Positions 41,460 through 64,000 of a DNA stretch of 64,000 nt are shown here, piece after piece (the first letter of the stretch is position 1; each line of letters begins with the position of its first letter). The DNA is from Harriotta raleighana (Eukaryota). Under the pieces are notes generated by a model that worked only from the letters and a program-made list of their open reading frames with translations, did not search any database and was not told where the DNA came from. The stretch spans positions 4,000,456-4,064,455 of the forward strand of contig JBNZDD010013683.1 in assembly GCA_050575255.1 (NCBI GenBank), written 5' to 3'. A program made the position numbers and the translations under genes.

Positions 41460-44400
41460 CTGGAAAAGAAGAGATGTAATGTTTTCAGCTGCAGCATTCA
41501 GTTCAGCCAAAAACTGAACTTAAAAGATCAGCGCTATGGCTTTGGCATGCTAGCTAGTAACATCATTAATCGATGAGATTCCTCATTCCTTTTATATTAC
41601 TTTGGATACAGAGAACGTCTAAAATTATCCATACTTGTGGCATCTGGCGCTGGCTTCTTTTAAAAGCACCAAAACAGTTTCGATTGACCTGCACGGGATA
41701 AACAACTCATAGATTCCACTGTGTTGACAATTATGATAATGTCCCTAGAATGCCATTAGATAAGAGATTGCAGATAACAAGATGTTGGGTATTTAATTTA
41801 ACTCTGCGAACGCTGACAGTCCTTCAGGCTAACGATTGCCCACTGTTCATTTCCAACGCATGATTTTTTAAAAAAATGTCATTTAAATTACACCCGAGAA
41901 GGGAGAGAGCAAATGAAAAGAAATTTCATTTGTTTTCTAAACGGGTTTTTAAAATCGACACATGAGCAACAGACACAGCTTGCACTTAGAAATGCAGCAT
42001 CTTTCACACATGTTAATGATCTCCAAGCACGTCACAAAGGCAAGAATTTCCAAGCTTTACACAATACTCGTTATTTTGCCTCAAATCTATTGGTTTAGTT
42101 TGACGAATGTCTCTTGGCACACCTCCCTACCTGTGTAATCTTCTCCAACCTCACCCTCCTTCGTGGATCTTCCACTCAGCAAATTCAAGCCCAGCTGCAT
42201 GTCCTATATCCCCACCCACCTCCGCACTCTCCGGATTTCACAACACGTCAAACAGAAAGTAATAAGCACTTTACTTGTAGCTGGAGAGCTCGGGGAGACA
42301 ATAAACCCGTCAATTTCTGCTCGCTTAGAAAAACTGGTGTTATTGTTCCTACGACAATTTCCTCGGTAAGATGGAGCTACCACTGAGTCACACCAGCTCA
42401 GGAAAATCTGGAGTCTGACATGCTGCTCTGCCTCATGTTAGCTGATCTTCACCGAGCAAGGTACAAACAGCTTTAATCACCTAAAGCTAAGGGGAAGGGG
42501 GATAGGAGGGCAAAAAAATAAAATTCAGTTAGGGTTTCCGTTCCTATTCACTCAGTGGTAATCATTGTTGGAAAGTGCACGTTTGTGGATACAGAATAAG
42601 AAAGGTTTTGAACTTTGAACTTGGATGAGTTATAGTGGGGGTGGGGTAGGGAGAGAGGGGTCCTAAGTTCTTGTAGCTGCAAACTTTTAACACTTGCAAG
42701 AGGAAGAAGGGAGGGGGGGGTGGGTGGAAGTGAATTTTTCAAATTGATGGAAATTGCTTTTAAAACAGCAATAAAGTAGGCATGGGAACACAGCAAAATC
42801 ACTGTTTTTGAGACGTATAGAGTTAAACGTGCTTCACAAGCCGAGTAATACAGTAGTACACAGAATACATAGATGCAAGGGCAGATTAAGCTTTTGACAT
42901 CTTGACTGTTTTTCATGGAACGGTGCCAATTAATAGTGCACAGTAAAGCATTGTACAAACCTGACTGCTCCCTGCCACGCAAACCCTTTGTTGTTACAAC
43001 CTGCGAGACTGCACAGTCAAAGCCCTGGAGCAGAATCATAAGTGGCTTTACTTTCAGGGATGAATTTACTATAACATACCTTGCGGAGTTTGTCCAGAAA
43101 GATGTCCACAACTTAAATCTGGTTCTGGCACAGGGTTTACCGGGCGCACACAGCAACCTGGGTGTCAGCAACATTTGCCCATGGAATTATCCGGCTTCAT
43201 TAAGTTAATGAGTGCTGGAATGTACACACACTGCAGAGCGTCAGGCTTTTCATTGAAATTCTGCCTCTCTCAGTGTCACAATGCCCGAGCTGGCGCTCAC
43301 TCCAGAACACGGTTCTGTATACGTATCTATCTCCCACAACTCAGCCTGAATGAATGCCTGCAGAATGTCTCTGGATGAACAGGGGGGGGGGGGTAAGCAG
43401 GTTTCTGGTTGTGCAGTCACAAACACAGACCCTCAAACTCGGAGAGAGGTGCAGAGCCAAAAGCACCAGTTTAGTCTCAAATCATCCATTGTTTTTATAT
43501 ACATTTTTTCAAAAATCTCTTGCTGAAAATAAGCACACACACACAAACTGAAAACCCAAGCTCATTCCTGCTCAAAGGCTATACAGTATGCACCATTCTG
43601 ACAAGAGTTTACCTCTTCAGATGTTTCTTATCAAGGCAAACGCAGTTATAATGTGACTTCAGATGCATCTGTCTATCCCCTTTGTGTGACCAGCTTAAAA
43701 ACGAGAGCATCCCTTCACACATTTACAAAAACCTGACCTGGAACCGAGATCTTAAGACATTAAATACACCAGTATAGTCAATGTAAAAAAAAAATTATAC
43801 CTTAATCCAGAAACGAGCAGCCAAAAATCAGCATGAACCAAGTCAAGCCATGCTATAGCTCATCTTGTGGTTATCTTTACAGGAAGCACCAGGATACCCT
43901 TAGTGAAAATACAAGGCTGTGGGGGGGGTAGGAGAGGGGGTAGGAAGGTGGAAGGACTGCAAACAATGTGCTGAATGCTTGATGATGGTTCTCACAACCA
44001 ACAGCAACAACAAATTGCTGCCAGAGAACCTGCCTTCAGGCCTCTGCCCAGCCAATCACCTTGAAAAGTAATAACGCACTCTTAGCTGCCTGAGGTGCTC
44101 CTCATTCTCTTCTCAGCCTCCTGCTTTGTCAGTGTCACCAGTGATTGTATTTATGATGCTTGTTTTGTTACCCATACCTTCCGACCTCCTTCCTTCACCA
44201 CCCAATCCCCACCCCGCCCCCACCCCGCACCTCACCGAGGCACTAACAAATCCAATCTGTTAAACATTTCACAAACGACCCCCTGTCCCGGCAAGAATGT
44301 TATCAATCAAGGTATTAAAGCGTGTTGCAGGCAGAGGAGGGGTGGGGGGGGGAGAGAGAAAGAATGACCTTTTCAAAGTCCTGCAGAAATGGAATCAAGG

Positions 44401-45117
44401 ACTGTCGTGAGTCAAGAGCTCTCTTGCTTGCTAACGGTGGAGTATTGTTCAGCCATCGGGCCGTGAGAAGTAAGCGTGAGAAGAGGGTAGAGACACACTT
44501 CTGACGAGCGAGGGAGAATAATGCGCAAAGTGTAGCACTTTCCAGCTTCCGAACTCGAGGAGCAGAGGAATCCGCGACTGTCTTTTATTTGCTCTCTCCG
44601 GCCGCTGGCAGTTACCCAGTCATCACCCCCGTTTTAACCCACTCTAAAGGCTTGTTTCTCACTTGCCAGCTGACACATAAAAGATGCCTACAGAGCCTCA
44701 CTGTTTGTGTTCTGACCCACACTGTGACAATGCATTTCAAGTTTTAAGTCCCTTAAAAGGAGGGAGGAGGTGGGGGGAGGAAAAAAAAACCTCCTTTTGA
44801 AATGTTTCTACTTTGTAGTGGTTTACAGCACCCAGCGGGGTTGATTTTCTGTATCTGCACTGCGTGTAAATCAGAATCCACTTATAATTATAAAATAATT
44901 ATACTCCTTTCTTCTGAAGTACCACCTGATTCTGTTATTGAGACGTCTCAATGGGAGCCACAGCCGTGTCCCACAAACAGCTGTGAATCGAGTGACCAGA
45001 TTTATCCTTTTTTAAAAATGATTACTCCCAGATACCGATTTGCCAATCGACTGATAACCGGGTTCCTACTTTCTGCTGAGTAATCAGAGACAGTAGGTAA
45101 TTCTGCTAGGTAATCAG

Positions 45118-52613: not shown

Positions 52614-53003
52614 CCGCTGGCGATATCATCGGTCCGCAGGTTCTTGGCCAGGACGTCGCCATCGCTCATGTAACCAGCCACGTCCAAGTTGATGGCCTCG
52701 AGATCCATGTCGTCACCGCTCTTATCCGGGATGTCCGAGTGGCACACGTTGCTGCTACGTGACGCCAGCTGCCTGCGGAGCGGTGTGGTGTACATGTAGC
52801 GGCCAGACTCGGGATGGATGAAGCGGCTGGCGTTGGCCCGAGGAGGGTACCCGTTGCCCAACGAGGGAGCGTCGCCGGCCTGGAGTCGAGGGCTCGATTG
52901 GCCAAGTCTCCACGACAACGGGGTGGACCTGCCCGTCATGCTGAGAATACTGCGTCCGCTGATCTCCGTGGTAACACTGCTGTCAAAAGTGGTCTCCAGT
53001 GTG
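52614..53003 (-). CDS. NAV2: NAV2 exon, 390 nt (TLETTFDSSVTTE...RLQAGDAPS...GYMSDGDVLAKNLRTDDIASG)
   Basis: Navigator motifs SPRLQAGDAPS and GYMSDGD. Acceptor tgtctag|C, donor GG|GTGAGG, phase 2 to 2. Confidence 0.97.
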
Positions 53004-54259: not shown

Positions 54260-54368
54260 CTGTGTGTGATCTGCGTCCCTCGTAAACTTGACATGGTCTC
54301 CTCCAGGTTCTGACGAAGGTCAGCGATGTTCTTAACCGTCCGCAGCCTTCGAGTCTCGGGATCATCTC
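54260..54368 (-). CDS. NAV2: NAV2 exon, 109 nt (DDPETRRLRTVKNIADLRQNLEETMSSLRGTQITHS), coiled-coil
   Basis: Navigator signature DLRQNLEETMSSLRG. Acceptor tctgtag|, donor AG|GTACCC, phase 1 to 2. Confidence 0.97.
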
Positions 54369-55025: not shown

Positions 55026-55671
55026 AAAAAGGTTTGCGAGCTGCTGTAAAGTACGCACAGTTCCCCAGCACTGCGTACCATGAAATCACAGGTTCACGGC
55101 CACAATAAATTGCTCAGCTTGACCCAGCCATCAGGCAAACAAAGCCCTGGTATTTCCCCACTGGAGGACACAGAAATCAAAGAGCGTGTCTCTTCAGAGC
55201 AGCGTTATGGTCATTCTTAGGGAGATCAACCCTGCGATGTTAATACCACACCAACCACTGAATCAACGGGGAAATCTCTTCCAAGTGCTTTCACTGCAAA
55301 GGTCACTACCAAAGCCCCGTCGCTGCCCGCTCCGAATACACCTTATAAATGCAAACACTCCACTGCAGTCCTGTGGGTTGACGTTTCGCCCATGAAACAT
55401 ACAATCCCAGAGCTTTTGAGGTGTCTCGAAGACACGTTAAGGCGCTACATCGGGGTCACGGACAGACTCGACCACCGCCAAGCGCTTCAGACGGGCGTTT
55501 CTCCCAGCAACCTGACCCAACAGTCTCCGAGATAAAATCGGGCATTCACTTCACTTCGTGGCCGTTTGCGGGATGTGGCCACGTGCAAAGCTGGTCGCCA
55601 AGTTTGCCTGGGAAACAGGCAGAAATTCATGACACCAAAGGCCCTACTTTCAAAATGCAAGGATTAATAAC

Positions 55672-55863
55672 NNNNNNNNNNNNNNNNNNNNNNNNNNNNN
55701 NNNNNNNNNNNNNNNNNNNNNNNNNNNNNNNNNNNNNNNNNNNNNNNNNNNNNNNNNNNNNNNNNNNNNNNNNNNNNNNNNNNNNNNNNNNNNNNNNNNN
55801 NNNNNNNNNNNNNNNNNNNNNNNNNNNNNNNNNNNNNNNNNNNNNNNNNNNNNNNNNNNNNNN
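55672..55863. other. Assembly gap (192 N)
   Basis: Run of N flanked by SINE tail sequence. Confidence 0.99.
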
Positions 55864-56330
55864 AAGCGCTTTGGGACGTCGATAAGATGTGAAAAGCGCT
55901 ATATCAAATGCAAGGATTATTATTATTATTATTATTAATCTCAGCAGAAGATTCTTTGTCATCACATTATCTCTGTCACGTGACAGTCTCCCACTGCGTC
56001 TGTTCCAATGAAATCCGTGGGCAGCAGCGTTTCTCCCAAGGCTTTTGTCCGGGTCACTCAACAACGACCACAAACCTTTCCACTCGTACTGTGCCTTTCA
56101 CGTTCCGGAGGACGTCCCGAGCGCTCAGCACAACGCAGCAGCAAGCTAACATCTTGCAATTCGGTAGCAACGACCAGAAAGGCCGTTTTAAGCTTTCACG
56201 TTTTCAATGCGCTCGTCCTCCACTTACTCGATTCAAGGCAACAAATCTGACTTCAAACCTATGCTTTCTCGTCCCACTGAAAACCCCCTCCCCCCGGGTT
56301 CCAGGTTCGATTGACTAACCCCACACTTAC

Positions 56331-56880
56331 TGTTCAGATGCTGGTAGACATCCAGCATTGTGAGCAAAGTCTCCTCGTTGATGCGAGCGATCCCTTGCCA
56401 AACGCACATGTGCTTCACGTTCACTTTGCACAACTCTTTGCTCCCGCACAGCACCGTGGCCGACTTTCGGGCGCTCGCGCTCGGCCCCGGTTTGGATACC
56501 GCCCCCCCCCCTCTTCCCGTCACTCCGCACGCGGTGGGGATCCCGCTGACCCGGTTCCCGGGCGCGGCCCTCTCAGGACGCCCGCAGGCCGAGCCGAAGG
56601 CTTTCCGAAATATTCCCGACGAGTTGAGCTCTGTGGGAGTGTCCGTTTGCGCCCTCGCGGCTTCTCCCCATTGTCGGCGGTGTTGTTGTTGTTGTTGGTG
56701 GTCGCGGTGCTGCTGCTGCTTTGAATCTCTCAGCAGACTGCTGCAGCCCCAGGACAGCACGGGATTTCTGGGGTAAAACCGACCCTTTTCGGATCTTGCA
56801 ATTCCGGCTTTGACTTTCTGTTCATAGTCTGTGGGATTTTTCGACCCGTAAACGCGGTTTCTGCTGCTCGGCTGGTACAT
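56331..56880 (-). CDS. NAV2: Putative alternative first coding exon of NAV2 (183 codons + 1 nt), NAV1-exon-1-like
   Basis: ATG with G at -3, uninterrupted ORF in CpG-rich sequence, consensus donor A|GTAAGT in phase 1 matching the acceptor at 54368. Contains SGIP and a Gln/His tract. Confidence 0.72.
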
Positions 56881-56950
56881 CGCTGACTGACTGACTGACT
56901 GACGACAGGATTCCGTTCCTGTTCCTTTCTCTCTCTCGTCGGGTCTCCCA
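56380..56950. promoter_or_regulatory. CpG-rich island over the putative internal first exon and promoter
   Basis: Visibly high GC and CpG density (e.g. gggcgctcgcgctcggccccgg, cccgggcgcggccc) against an AT-rich intronic background; not quantified. Confidence 0.6.
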
Positions 56951-58139
56951 CTGAAAGTTTATTCTCTGCCTTACGCGTGCAGTTGAGTGTTAAACAAGCC
57001 TCTTTCAGTAGGTTTTTCGCATGTCTGCTAACTTTCATCTGCGGCAAAGTAACTGATCTGACCCCCCTCCCCCCACACACTCCACCCCCACCCAAACACG
57101 CCAGGTGAACTTTTGGAGTTTGCACAGATTTAGGTCAAAAGTAGTAAGCGTAAGGCAACAGAAACCCATCAACCAGATTTTGCTTCACACAGTCTGTTGT
57201 GAAGGGACACTTTCTCTTGCACAGCGAGTGAGCGAGCTCTCTTACTCCAGGCTTCTTAAGCCCGTATTTAAATTGACGGATGGGGTTGGCGGGGGTGGGA
57301 GGGGAGAAGGAGAAAACGGCCTGTTATGTTCTCGGGTCAGCCATACAGAGGAAAGCTTATTGAAAACGTTTCAGTCATTACCATCGCAGCACAGTCTGAG
57401 TCCTCACTGCCCCCTTAATATGCGTCCGGTGTTCCTCTTTTTCATACTTGTGTTTGTCTTGCTCTAAGGCTGCCATGGTACAAACAGCTGAAATGGGCAC
57501 AACAGCAGCTCTGCCGACCTCAGACTACAAAACGTCTATTCACCACCTCCAGTGTTGTGAATCTTGCTCTATTCAAAAAAGACATAAGCCTTTCCCTCCC
57601 CCCACACTCCCCTACCCCCAACCCCCACCCCCACACCCACCCAACCAATAAACTGCAAATGCTTCTTTTAACCCACTAAGAGAATAGATGAACAGAAGAA
57701 CAAATTTCCTCTTAAACCCCCTCCCCCTCCACCNACCATCCCACACCCGTCTCAAGATGCCACTCACTTTGGTTACAGGGAGGTAAACTGAAGGGGGGGG
57801 GAATTTCAACAAAGTATATGGTGTTATGGGTGGGGGGGGGGGGATGGGGGGAAGCCTTTTTGCTAATTTTGTTCCACCCTTTGCTCTCTCCTACAGCTTT
57901 TGATTTTTTGTTTCAAGGTGCTTTGTTCTCTACTCAATCCTGGTGGTTTGTAAGTAGAGAGATAGCGGCCATATCCAATCCTACCTTTGCCCCTCATCCA
58001 CATGCAGGAGTTCACTTGAAAGCAATTAGGATTTGGAGCTAGGTTGGTTGGTCGACGTTTCTCCTCAGTCTAAGGCCAAATATGACACTTCTACTTCTGA
58101 CCAGGTTGATAACAGCAAACAAATGTCATCCTACAATCT

Positions 58140-58804: not shown

Positions 58805-59494
58805 CTTCCCTCCCTCCCATTCCCGAGCCTGACCTCATTTTTTAGTGCTGCACATTGCACACGGTACATCCAAGTAAGGTTAGTTTCACTCCCGCTAATG
58901 GCCCTGATCCCTGGGAAAGCACCGATGCCGGGAGCACCCGCCAAAATGAGGGCCCACTGTCCCAGTGGATTAAGNTAAGAAAGGTTAGTTTCACTCCCGC
59001 TAATGGCCCTGATCCCTGGGAAAGCACCAATGCCGGGAGCACCCGCCAAAATGAGGGCCCACTGTCCCAGTGGATTAAGAATGGGTCAATCAGGAACAGT
59101 AAATGCAACGTCCTCAAGAGAGATGAGACGTAAACGCTACATTTTTAAATGCATAACATTTTAATTTTCTTTCAAATGGAAGTGAAATTGGTTCCATTAA
59201 TCAAAACGTTGCTTTGTTGATGTCGCTGTTCGCACGTACAACACTCAGGCCATAAACTCTTGTCTGCGTGGCGTTGGTGATTGCATAGAATGATGTTAAT
59301 GTGATTGCCACAAATTCAGCACAAAACCGCTGCATCAATGTTATAAGCATAGGATATTCTCTCTGCGATATCTAAGTTGGACCTCTACATCTGACTGGGT
59401 TTACCTTAAGGCTGTCAAGGGAGAGATTGGCATGATAGGAATAAAACAACTAAGTTAACAAAGCCTCGACAACATAAATATTTTGTATGAATAA

Positions 59495-60538: not shown

Positions 60539-60651
60539 CAGGCTGATCTTCCAAGCAGGGCTGTCCATTTTTGCTGTATAGAACAGTTTCCATGTTCACT
60601 CCCCCACTACTGGATTCAGTTATAACATTCCCTTCATTGTCTGTCTGTGAC
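60539..60651 (-). CDS. NAV2: NAV2 exon, 113 nt (SQTDNEGNVITESSSGGVNMETVLYSKNGQPCLEDQP)
   Basis: Acceptor ttttttag|G, donor G|GTGAGT, phase 2 to 1. Resembles NAV2 SQTDTEGNVTAESSS as recalled. Confidence 0.93.
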
Positions 60652-63036: not shown

Positions 63037-64000
63037 CTGTACATGAACGGAGCAACAGTGGCAGTGTTGGGATGGTTGTATTGCTGCTGTGGATGAGGTA
63101 GCTGGACACTGACAGTGTTACTTGCTGTAGTTTGGGTCGTGCTGGCTGTGGTGGCAGACTGAGCGATGCTGTTGTTCGCAGAGGAGGTCCCTCCGGGCCC
63201 TTTCCCCTCAGATGAGGCTAAACTACTGGAGCTCGAGTTCTTACTGTCCAACTGTGCTTTCTGCAGTGAGAGACCAGCGCCCAGCTTCCCACTGCGGGGT
63301 CTCTCTGTCTCCTTGGCGGGAGCTTGGGCACTTGTCGTTTTCCCTGTATGAGGTTTTAGCCCTGGTTTTGGTATTCCACTTTGTTGAGGTGCGGATGGGT
63401 CTTTTTTGGCACCAATCAGTTTCCCTCCTTTTGGGATAAAGCTTGTGATCTTAGAGGACTTTTTTGGCATGTCAGAAGTAGATGTCGGTGGTTCCTCTTT
63501 TGGCTCCTTTGCCACGTCTACCTTTTCAGAGATAGAGACCCTTTTTGTGACCTCCTTCGCTTTGTCCTTCTCCTTCTGCTTCTCCTTCTCCTTCTCACTG
63601 CCTTTTGCCGAGCTTTTCTTATTGCTCAACGCTCGACTGATAGTCCTTTGTGCAATGCCTTTTAGTGCAATTTTGGGGCTGTTTGAGGCAGGTCCTGGGC
63701 TATTAACACTTCTGGTCGAGGTGTCCATTTCACTAAGGTCCGCACAGTTTGCGGCTGGCTCCAGTCGCTCGCAGCTGCTTTCGTGAGGCCCTGAGGTGTC
63801 CACGCTGGTTCCGCTGGCCTTAGAACCACTTTTGCTATTGAACAGCTTTAGCTTCTCCAGCATGGACTTTTGGCCGTTGGCATTGGACTTGGCGTTGGAG
63901 GCTGGCTCAGCAGGTGGCTTGGGTGGCTCCTGAGCGGGCTGTTGCTTCACAGATAGCATGGAAGACGTGGCAGTGTGCTTGGCATTGAGGGACTTGCTAC
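63037..64000 (-). CDS. NAV2: NAV2 large Ser/Lys/Pro-rich exon, 5' end outside the window (SKSLNAKHTATSSMLSVKQQP...KSMLEKLKLFNSK...SFIPK...SGIPKPG...NHPNTATVAPFMYR)
   Basis: Frame is open to the window edge. Contains navigator-family motifs KSMLEKLKLFNSK and HPNTATVAPF.YR plus SxIP-type motifs SFIP and SGIP. Donor AG|GTAAGG at 63036, phase 2. Confidence 0.96.

What the first reader, a model, noticed from the sequence alone, without database searches (positions are those of the whole stretch)
56331..56950. NAV1-like alternative N-terminus hidden in a NAV2 intron
Seen: a 183-codon ATG-initiated ORF in a CpG-rich island ends at a perfect GTAAGT donor in phase 1 and joins in frame to give ...VYQHLN-R-DDPETRRLRTVKNIADLRQNLEETM. 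It encodes a Gln/His tract, an SxIP-type motif (RVSGIPT) and a terminal helix ARINEETLLTMLDVYQHL. Established (recalled): the canonical NAV1 protein lacks the CH domain, and its unique N-terminus, containing PSRIP and ending LKVDPELVVTVLGDLEQLL, joins directly to the homologous DPESQRKRTVQNVLDLRQNLEETM segment. Inference: this NAV2 can make a CH-less NAV1-type isoform with its own EB1-binding site. That would suggest the dual-promoter design predates the NAV paralogue duplications and was partitioned among paralogues.
Basis: partly seen in the sequence, partly recalled or inferred. Interest (0 to 1): 0.75.

Follow-up and report, generated by a model that had tools for sequence, protein, structure and literature searches.

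The report
Ancient alternative start exon of Navigators
A second start exon inside a chimaera-like fish's NAV2 gene would make a short protein without the actin-binding head, and its relatives suggest that the supposedly unique front end of NAV1 is an old alternative start that NAV3, including human NAV3, still carries.

Summary
In detail: minus-strand ATG 56880 to a GTAAGT donor after 56331 (183 codons + 1 nt, phase 1), in the window's densest CpG island, in frame with the NAV2 exon at 54368. It is conserved coding sequence: elephant shark has a database model (A0A4W3JNB4) starting with this peptide (124/183 identical), and teleost NAV2 models share its last ~25 residues. No RNA could be examined. 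The NAV1 link is real but indirect: NAV2 exon versus NAV1 exon 1 is not significant (HHalign E 0.61) and three NAV1 motifs are missing. However, NAV3 from skate to human (NP_001424948.1) has a CH-less form whose first exon at the same junction is plainly homologous to NAV1 exon 1 (E 2.7e-25) and shares the exon-end block with NAV2 (rank 1 of 46,326). So the internal start predates the duplications, but was not partitioned: NAV3 keeps both starts, and NAV1 models keep upstream exons, minus CH. Motifs were split instead: NAV2 keeps SxIP (the short form's only passing one), NAV3 keeps the others. Not found in eight paper searches or earlier scan notes; key 2002 papers were unreadable.

The parts
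56001..57200 (.). CpG island over the exon, its upstream flank and the start of the next intron; candidate internal promoter (start site unknown)
   Evidence: GC 0.50-0.61, CpG o/e up to 1.06, highest CpG count in the window
56331..56880 (-). Coding part of the alternative first exon: 183 codons + 1 nt
   Evidence: 124/183 identical to the N-terminus of C. milii A0A4W3JNB4
56671..56718 (-). Gln/His tract (residues 55-70); lineage-specific expansion, 10 residues longer than in C. milii
56536..56547 (-). SxIP motif SGIP (residues 112-115), candidate EB-binding site, 62 residues before the TML anchor
   Evidence: SSIP/SRIP at 62-64 in four homologues; NAV1 SRIP at 65-78
56332..56406 (-). Conserved exon-end block (residues 159-183), predicted amphipathic helix; homologous to the end of the NAV3 internal first exon
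56325..56330 (-). 5' splice site GTAAGT, phase 1
54260..54368 (-). First shared NAV2 exon (DDPETRR...QITH), phase-1 acceptor used by both upstream exons
60539..60651 (-). Last exon specific to the long form (SQTDNEG...EDQPG), phase-1 donor, competing partner for the 54368 acceptor
63037..63998 (-). Large long-form exon (5' end may lie beyond the window) carrying two passing SxIP motifs that the short form skips
52615..53003 (-). Second shared exon, used for the paralogue tree (3' end approximate)

Best explanation
This is a promoter-driven alternative first coding exon of NAV2 in a close relative of the elephant shark. Shown: an intact, conserved ORF with a phase-1 donor matching the shared acceptor. 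Inferred: transcription starts in the CpG island, the exon splices to 54368 and replaces all long-form exons, giving a roughly 1,800-residue NAV2 without the CH domain. The new N-terminus supplies one SxIP for EB-dependent microtubule-tip tracking in place of the several SxIPs lost with the upstream exons, and a helix that abuts the shared DLRQNLEETM helix. The exon descends from an internal first exon present before the NAV1/NAV2/NAV3 duplications: NAV1 made it the main start, NAV3 keeps it as a second start with most NAV1 motifs but usually no SxIP, and NAV2 keeps the exon-end block and (in chimaeras and a halosaur) the SxIP.
For: Same N-terminus and join in C. milii model P0002, which has no Pfam CH while the long model P0003 does. 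Exon-end block shared with NAV2 models of Aldrovandia, electric eel, catfishes and a sucker and with an unnamed pair P0123/P0126. 111 of the 120 listed hits carry the NAV3 version of the block and 105 of those 111 start within that exon; one is human NP_001424948.1. NAV3 exon versus NAV1 exon 1: HHalign 99.7%, E 2.7e-25, 178 columns; NAV3 HMM scores 24 of 24 NAV1 peptides at 83.5-98.2 bits. NAV2 versus NAV3 exon: 76.5%, E 2.2e-5, 24 columns, score 37.3 against a best of 18.4 in 40 column shuffles; a NAV3-only 18-column matrix ranks the window's block 1 of 46,326 positions, 24.3 versus 11.3 next. In C. milii all 5 passing SxIPs of the long form lie in skipped exons and the short form's only one lies in this exon; in the window 0 of 8 downstream exon frames tested hold one. 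NAV1's exon-1 SRIP is one of two main EB1 sites (PMC7480110, passages). Trees put NAV1 outside NAV2+NAV3 (midpoint root), as the review states (PMC9877351).
Against: No direct NAV2-NAV1 profile match (E 0.61; NAV1 HMM -2.9 to 5.5 bits on 11 of 11 NAV2-type peptides; 816 of 1,918 reported shuffles reach the peptide's score). The whole-exon NAV3 HMM gives the window peptide only 3.6 bits (96 of 2,000 shuffles reach it) and neither HMM puts it among the top 6 of 1,348 window frames. The three other NAV1/NAV3 motifs are in 0 of 11 NAV2-type peptides. SxIP is in only 5 of 11, absent from all 6 otophysan ones (one of which is only 35 residues). All support for splicing is database gene models; 9 models place such an exon internally. 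An out-of-frame ATG at 57038 overlaps the start if transcription begins upstream of it.
Confidence: 0.78

Rival explanations
1. Only the splice-proximal ~25 codons are ancient. The rest of the NAV2 exon, SxIP included, was replaced or arose anew, so the short NAV2 is CH-less like NAV1 but not NAV1-like in its N-terminal functions, and its SxIP is convergent.
For: No alignable similarity outside the end block; 0 of 11 for the other three motifs; SxIP is four residues, and Aldrovandia has a second one at another distance.
Against: The motif sits 62-64 residues before the anchor in five NAV2-type peptides and 65-78 (17 of 24 at 66) in NAV1, each with a basic residue two positions before it; a passing S/TxIP is expected 0.037 times in 183 residues of the window's frames. 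These five are related sequences, not independent trials.
Confidence: 0.25
2. The exon is mainly an internal cassette spliced into the long CH-containing transcript, as the equivalent exon is in long NAV1 models, not a promoter-driven first exon.
For: NAV1 models and unnamed assembled records read from upstream exons into exon 1 (P0247, P0249, P0252, P0254, P0256, P0258, P0277). Six NAV3 and three NAV2 models include the exon internally. In-frame phase-1 AGs exist at 56894 and 56882 (9 of 17 pyrimidines, no worse than the shared acceptor).
Against: 105 of 111 NAV3-type models start in the exon; the nine internal models enter at differing points, as expected of prediction artefacts; the first 30 residues from the Met are 23/30 identical to C. 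milii; the CpG island runs over the ATG and upstream.
Confidence: 0.12
3. A chance or relic ORF in a CpG-rich intron segment, not used.
For: Nine ATG ORFs of 150 codons or more occur in the window; no Pfam match.
Against: Full-length in-frame conservation with C. milii and conservation of the end block with teleosts; a matrix from the non-chimaera NAV2 peptides ranks it 1 of 46,326 (52.1 versus 11.7).
Confidence: 0.03

Closest known systems
Callorhinchus milii NAV2 model UniRef100_A0A4W3JNB4 (P0002, 1763 aa)
   Same: Orthologous exon, same Met, same join, no CH, SxIP at the same place.
   Different: A database model only; lacks the Gln/His expansion; SSIP instead of SGIP.
Human NAV3 CH-less isoform NP_001424948.1 / A0A2R8YFX5 (P0023, 1842 aa) and its vertebrate orthologues
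   Same: First exon of similar size joined to the EDPETRR exon; homologous exon-end block; no CH.
   Different: Keeps the KQKSLTNL, SxSxHSL and SDDE-type motifs (184, 187 and 141 of 198) that NAV2 lacks; a passing SxIP in the exon in only 6 of 105; five more residues between TML and the junction.
NAV1 canonical exon 1
   Same: Joins the DPE-type exon; CH-less product; SxIP at similar distance from a hydrophobic exon-end segment; SRIP there is an EB1 site (PMC7480110, passages).
   Different: No significant direct similarity to the NAV2 exon; also used as an internal exon of longer NAV1 models; NAV1 has a second SGIP downstream that chimaera NAV2 lacks.
Mouse Nav2 short transcript
   Same: A NAV2 product without the CH-bearing 5' part (PMC2843687 and PMC9877351, passages).
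   Different: Proposed to start upstream of exon 13; by my recalled exon count the exon here lies several introns further 5', so it is a different start.

Membership tests
Vertebrate NAV2 gene | Shared exons group with NAV2, apart from NAV3 and NAV1 | tested here: met
   window exon with C. milii (100/99) inside a sturgeon/teleost NAV2 group (92/94); C. milii orthologue in a NAV2 clade, SH-aLRT 100, 15 rows, no tetrapod NAV2 row available
Vertebrate NAV2 gene | Long form with CH domain upstream | tested here: inconclusive
   Two long-form exons in the window match P0003, which has Pfam CH; the CH exons lie outside the window and no genome is held
Alternative promoter-driven first exon | Conserved ORF with a donor in the phase of the shared acceptor | tested here: met
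Alternative promoter-driven first exon | CpG island or promoter signature | tested here: met
   no TATA, GC-box or CCAAT consensus within 620 nt upstream
Alternative promoter-driven first exon | Transcription start and spliced RNA | not testable with these tools
   no run could be laid on the stretch
NAV1 exon-1 type N-terminus | Direct profile similarity to NAV1 exon 1 | tested here: not met
   HHalign probability 0.1, E 0.61; a 10-column NAV1 block ranks it 18 of 57,110
NAV1 exon-1 type N-terminus | KQKSLTNL, SxSxHSL and SDDE motifs (24 of 24 NAV1 peptides) | tested here: not met
   0 of 11 NAV2-type peptides for each
NAV1 exon-1 type N-terminus | SxIP about 65 residues before the exon-end anchor | tested here: met
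   62 in the window; 5 of 11 NAV2-type peptides
NAV1 exon-1 type N-terminus | Joins the DPE exon in phase 1, product lacks CH | tested here: met
   NAV1 phase inferred from read-through (..QML-G) versus spliced (..QML-D) proteins, not from NAV1 DNA
NAV3 internal first exon | Exon-end block CxxxGxAxhxxExhLTML | tested here: met
SxIP EB-binding motif | [ST]x[IL]P with a basic and no acidic neighbour | tested here: met
   RVSGIPTAC passes; rule as stated in PMC9877351 section 10, the exact 9-residue span is recalled
SxIP EB-binding motif | Lies in a disordered region | not tested
   inferred from G/S/P/A-rich composition only
SxIP EB-binding motif | Binds EB1 and tracks microtubule tips | not testable with these tools
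   needs an assay

The most novel reading that the evidence does not exclude
The ancestral vertebrate Navigator gene had two starts. NAV1's 'unique' N-terminus is the internal one, and NAV1 lost only its CH exons, not its 5' end. NAV2 and NAV3 still make NAV1-type CH-less proteins from the same site, with the exon's motifs lost reciprocally (NAV2 kept the EB-binding SxIP; NAV3 kept the basic/serine motifs). Human NAV3 therefore encodes an unstudied NAV1-like isoform that escapes 5' variants and 5' knockdown reagents and could buffer NAV1 loss.
Probability: 0.6. Interest if true: 0.65.

Novelty: new variant of a known kind. Interest (0 to 1): 0.5.

Why it matters
The current account is that NAV1 lost its CH-encoding 5' end (PMC9877351, section 7, citing Maes 2002) and that NAV2 and NAV3 are the CH-bearing members. 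If all three share an old internal start, CH-less Navigators are an isoform class, not a NAV1 peculiarity. That changes how loss-of-function data are read: a NAV3 patient variant at c.243+1 (PMC11754320, passages) and the zebrafish ATG morpholino, whose printed sequence reads as a start other than that of the short zebrafish model P0118 (PMC11231287, passages), would by position spare the short form, whereas C-terminal truncations hit both. It also gives a natural experiment on which N-terminal motifs of NAV1 do what. The chimaera exon itself is an ordinary alternative first exon already modelled in a database; the interest lies in the three-way homology.

Tried and rejected
RNA: no RNA holder listed for 55900-57300, so no reads were laid; no evidence either way. 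No whole genome held, so NAV1/NAV3 of this species could not be searched. Direct NAV1 profile tests failed. phmmer of the peptide over 1.84 billion representatives gave 3 hits at E<=0.001, one a repeat-driven false hit (P0125). The 'longer' word search gave 1 hit among 332 candidates. Pfam: no family for the peptide. ESM Atlas: no usable hit. AlphaFold of a 97-residue junction segment of the C. milii model: helices confident, packing not (pTM 0.35); Foldseek PDB no match at E<=0.001; two-copy complex job gave no verdict. 'Partitioned among paralogues' rejected. 'NAV1 still has CH in ray-finned fish' not supported: the bowfin model and five other NAV1 models with upstream sequence have no Pfam CH, nor do five; models may be incomplete. 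A role for the Gln/His tract rejected as unconserved. Loss of the exon from tetrapod NAV2 is suggested but not shown: none among the 120 listed of 3,944 hits, but clusters hide isoforms and shark, gar and sturgeon NAV2 short models were not listed either. dN/dS could not be run: no homologous DNA. Klein 2011 was not held. Earlier scan notes: none by sequence; one by words, about a different site upstream of the CH exon in an arthropod gene.

Full report
Observation. On the minus strand an ATG at 56880 opens a frame that reaches a GTAAGT donor after base 56331: 550 nt, 183 codons plus one base. The canonical upstream exon (60651-60539) also ends in phase 1, so the two compete for one acceptor. 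The exon lies in a CpG island (56001-57200) with the highest CpG count in the window; five other stretches also pass island thresholds. ORF length alone proves little: 9 ATG ORFs of 150 codons or more occur in the window.

Which gene. The compared shared exons are mostly 94-100% identical to Callorhinchus milii models and less so to sturgeon NAV2 or catshark NAV3, so the source is probably another chimaera (inference). A 28-row tree of one window exon places it with C. milii inside a sturgeon/teleost NAV2 group (92/94); a 15-row tree of the shared part gives NAV2 (100) and NAV3 (99) clades with bowfin NAV1 outside under midpoint rooting. No tetrapod NAV2 was available. Database names are unreliable here: the long C. 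milii model is labelled NAV3 though it is the same gene.

It is coding. The peptide finds C. milii A0A4W3JNB4, 1763 aa, which starts with it (124/183 identical) and makes the same join. That model has no Pfam CH; the long model does. Identity is 23/30 at the start, 15-21/30 in the middle and 31/33 at the end; the Gln/His tract is a 10-residue insertion. The end block recurs in NAV2 models of Aldrovandia, electric eel, Bagarius, Silurus and Myxocyprinus and in an unnamed pair, P0123/P0126. A matrix from the non-chimaera peptides ranks the window's block 1 of 46,326 positions. Transcription in this species was not examined.

The NAV3 bridge. Searching with the junction region returned 3,944 proteins among 4,014 candidates, 120 listed: 6 with the NAV2-type block, 111 with a NAV3-type block, 3 with neither; 105 of the 111 start within that exon. 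They span skate, catshark, sturgeon, teleosts, frog, reptiles, birds and mammals, including human NP_001424948.1; the six full-length short NAV3 proteins scanned and the human one lack CH. A search with the sturgeon NAV3 exon gave 144 hits among 2,504 candidates, 120 listed: 96 NAV3-like and 24 NAV1 exon-1 peptides. Profiles were built from 24 NAV1, 198 NAV3 (179 distinct; those matching the cut pattern) and 11 NAV2 (10 distinct) exon peptides. NAV3 versus NAV1: probability 99.7, E 2.7e-25 over 178 columns. NAV2 versus NAV3: 76.5, E 2.2e-5 over the last 24 columns; 40 column shuffles reach at most 18.4 against 37.3. A NAV3-only 18-column matrix, built from hits not selected by NAV2 similarity, ranks the window's block first of 46,326 (24.3, next 11.3), and still first with the TML anchor left out (13.7, next 9.8).

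Results against. NAV2 versus NAV1 directly is not significant (probability 0.1, E 0.61). The NAV1 HMM scores the peptide -1.7 bits, the whole-exon NAV3 HMM 3.6 bits (96 of 2,000 shuffles reach it), and neither lists it among the top six of 1,348 window frames. The 18-column NAV1 matrix ranks it 402 of 46,326, a 10-column one 18 of 57,110. The KQKSLTNL, SxSxHSL and SDDE motifs, in 24 of 24 NAV1 and 184, 187 and 141 of 198 NAV3 peptides, are in 0 of 11 NAV2 peptides. So the exon is not a member of the NAV1 exon-1 family by direct test; it is linked by position, phase, the end block shared with NAV3, and the SxIP spacing.

SxIP logic. The motif lies 62 residues before the anchor in the window, C. 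milii and the unnamed pair, 64 in Aldrovandia, and 65-78 in NAV1 (17 of 24 at 66); it is absent from the six otophysan peptides. In C. milii all five passing SxIPs of the long form are in skipped exons and the short form's only one is in this exon; in the window two lie in the 63998-63037 exon, one in this exon and none in 8 downstream exon frames or the small upstream exon (the 3' part of the gene is outside the window). NAV1's two main EB1 sites are the exon-1 SRIP and a downstream SGIP (PMC7480110, passages); the downstream site aligns with a non-motif in chimaera NAV2 but survives in skate and catshark NAV3. Short NAV3 has a passing motif in its first exon in 6 of 105 and in the shared part in 85 of 105. 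AlphaFold on the C. milii junction predicts a helix over the exon end followed by a long helix in the shared exon, with no confident packing.

Mechanism. Shown: exon anatomy, coding conservation, homology chain. Inferred: a CpG-island promoter starts a transcript that splices to 54368 and yields a CH-less NAV2 tracking microtubule tips through its one SxIP. EB binding rests on motif rules (PMC9877351 section 10) and analogy with NAV1. Rivals are a convergent SxIP with only the end block old (0.25), cassette use (0.12; nine models include such exons internally at differing entry points, and weak in-frame acceptors exist at 56894 and 56882) and a dead ORF (0.03).

Evolution. With NAV1 outside NAV2+NAV3 (PMC9877351 section 7), homology of the NAV3 exon to NAV1 exon 1 puts the internal start before both duplications. 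It was not partitioned: NAV3 has both forms, and NAV1 models from bowfin and primates keep upstream exons, with a segment like NAV2's ATVAPFMYR, spliced into 'exon 1', without Pfam CH. What differs among paralogues is which motifs survive. Loss from tetrapod NAV2 is open.

Literature. Eight searches found no description of this exon or of the NAV3-NAV1 exon homology. Seen: PMC9877351 outline, section 7, part 1 of section 10 and passages; passages of PMC2843687, PMC7480110, PMC7005187, PMC11754320 and PMC11231287. The review says NAV1 likely lost its 5' end and compares only CH-bearing NAV2 isoforms. A short mouse Nav2 starting upstream of exon 13 is known. No supplements were read; the review's workbooks could list isoforms. 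Maes 2002, Coy 2002 and Peeters 2004 were not read and Klein 2011 was not held; Coy 2002 is titled as describing NAV3 isoforms and may anticipate part of this. Earlier scan notes held nothing on this sequence and one note on a different navigator site.

Verdict. New variant of a known kind; interest 0.5.

Noticed in passing
P0023 (NP_001424948.1) and 104 other listed models: NAV3 from skate to human has a CH-less isoform whose first exon is homologous to NAV1 exon 1 over 178 columns; not found in the papers searched.
   Followed up: yes
P0277, P0254, P0256, P0243, P0245, P0247, P0249, P0252, P0258: NAV1 models and unnamed assembled records keep exons upstream of 'exon 1' and read into it in frame; no CH detected. 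P0277 is also fused to an Ig/Fn3 gene, probably a model artefact.
   Followed up: partly
window 57038-56730 (-): Out-of-frame ATG ORF of 102 codons overlaps the exon's start codon; two shorter upstream ATGs at 57169 and 57022. Would act as upstream ORFs if the start site lies above them.
   Followed up: no
window 56903-56883 (-): A short (TCAG)n repeat sits directly before the ATG and holds two weak in-frame phase-1 acceptors.
   Followed up: partly
window 44101-44700 and 55101-55700: Two intronic CpG patches without a matched exon; the first, in the intron after the 53003 exon, could mark a further internal start. Sequence viewed, nothing established.
   Followed up: partly
window 41464-41339 (-): An exon matched by sturgeon NAV2 (88%) but missing from both C. 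milii models, which carry an unrelated stretch there; probably an annotation gap in those models.
   Followed up: no
window about 58850-59090: A ~105-nt direct duplication with a single N near the junction (58975), seen in translation; possibly an assembly artefact.
   Followed up: no
window 55672-55863: A 192-base assembly gap in the intron between the alternative exon and the shared exon.
   Followed up: no
P0003, P0006, P0008: NAV2 proteins labelled 'neuron navigator 3' by a source; P0002, P0006 and P0008 fall in the NAV2 clade, and P0003 is the long form of P0002.
   Followed up: yes
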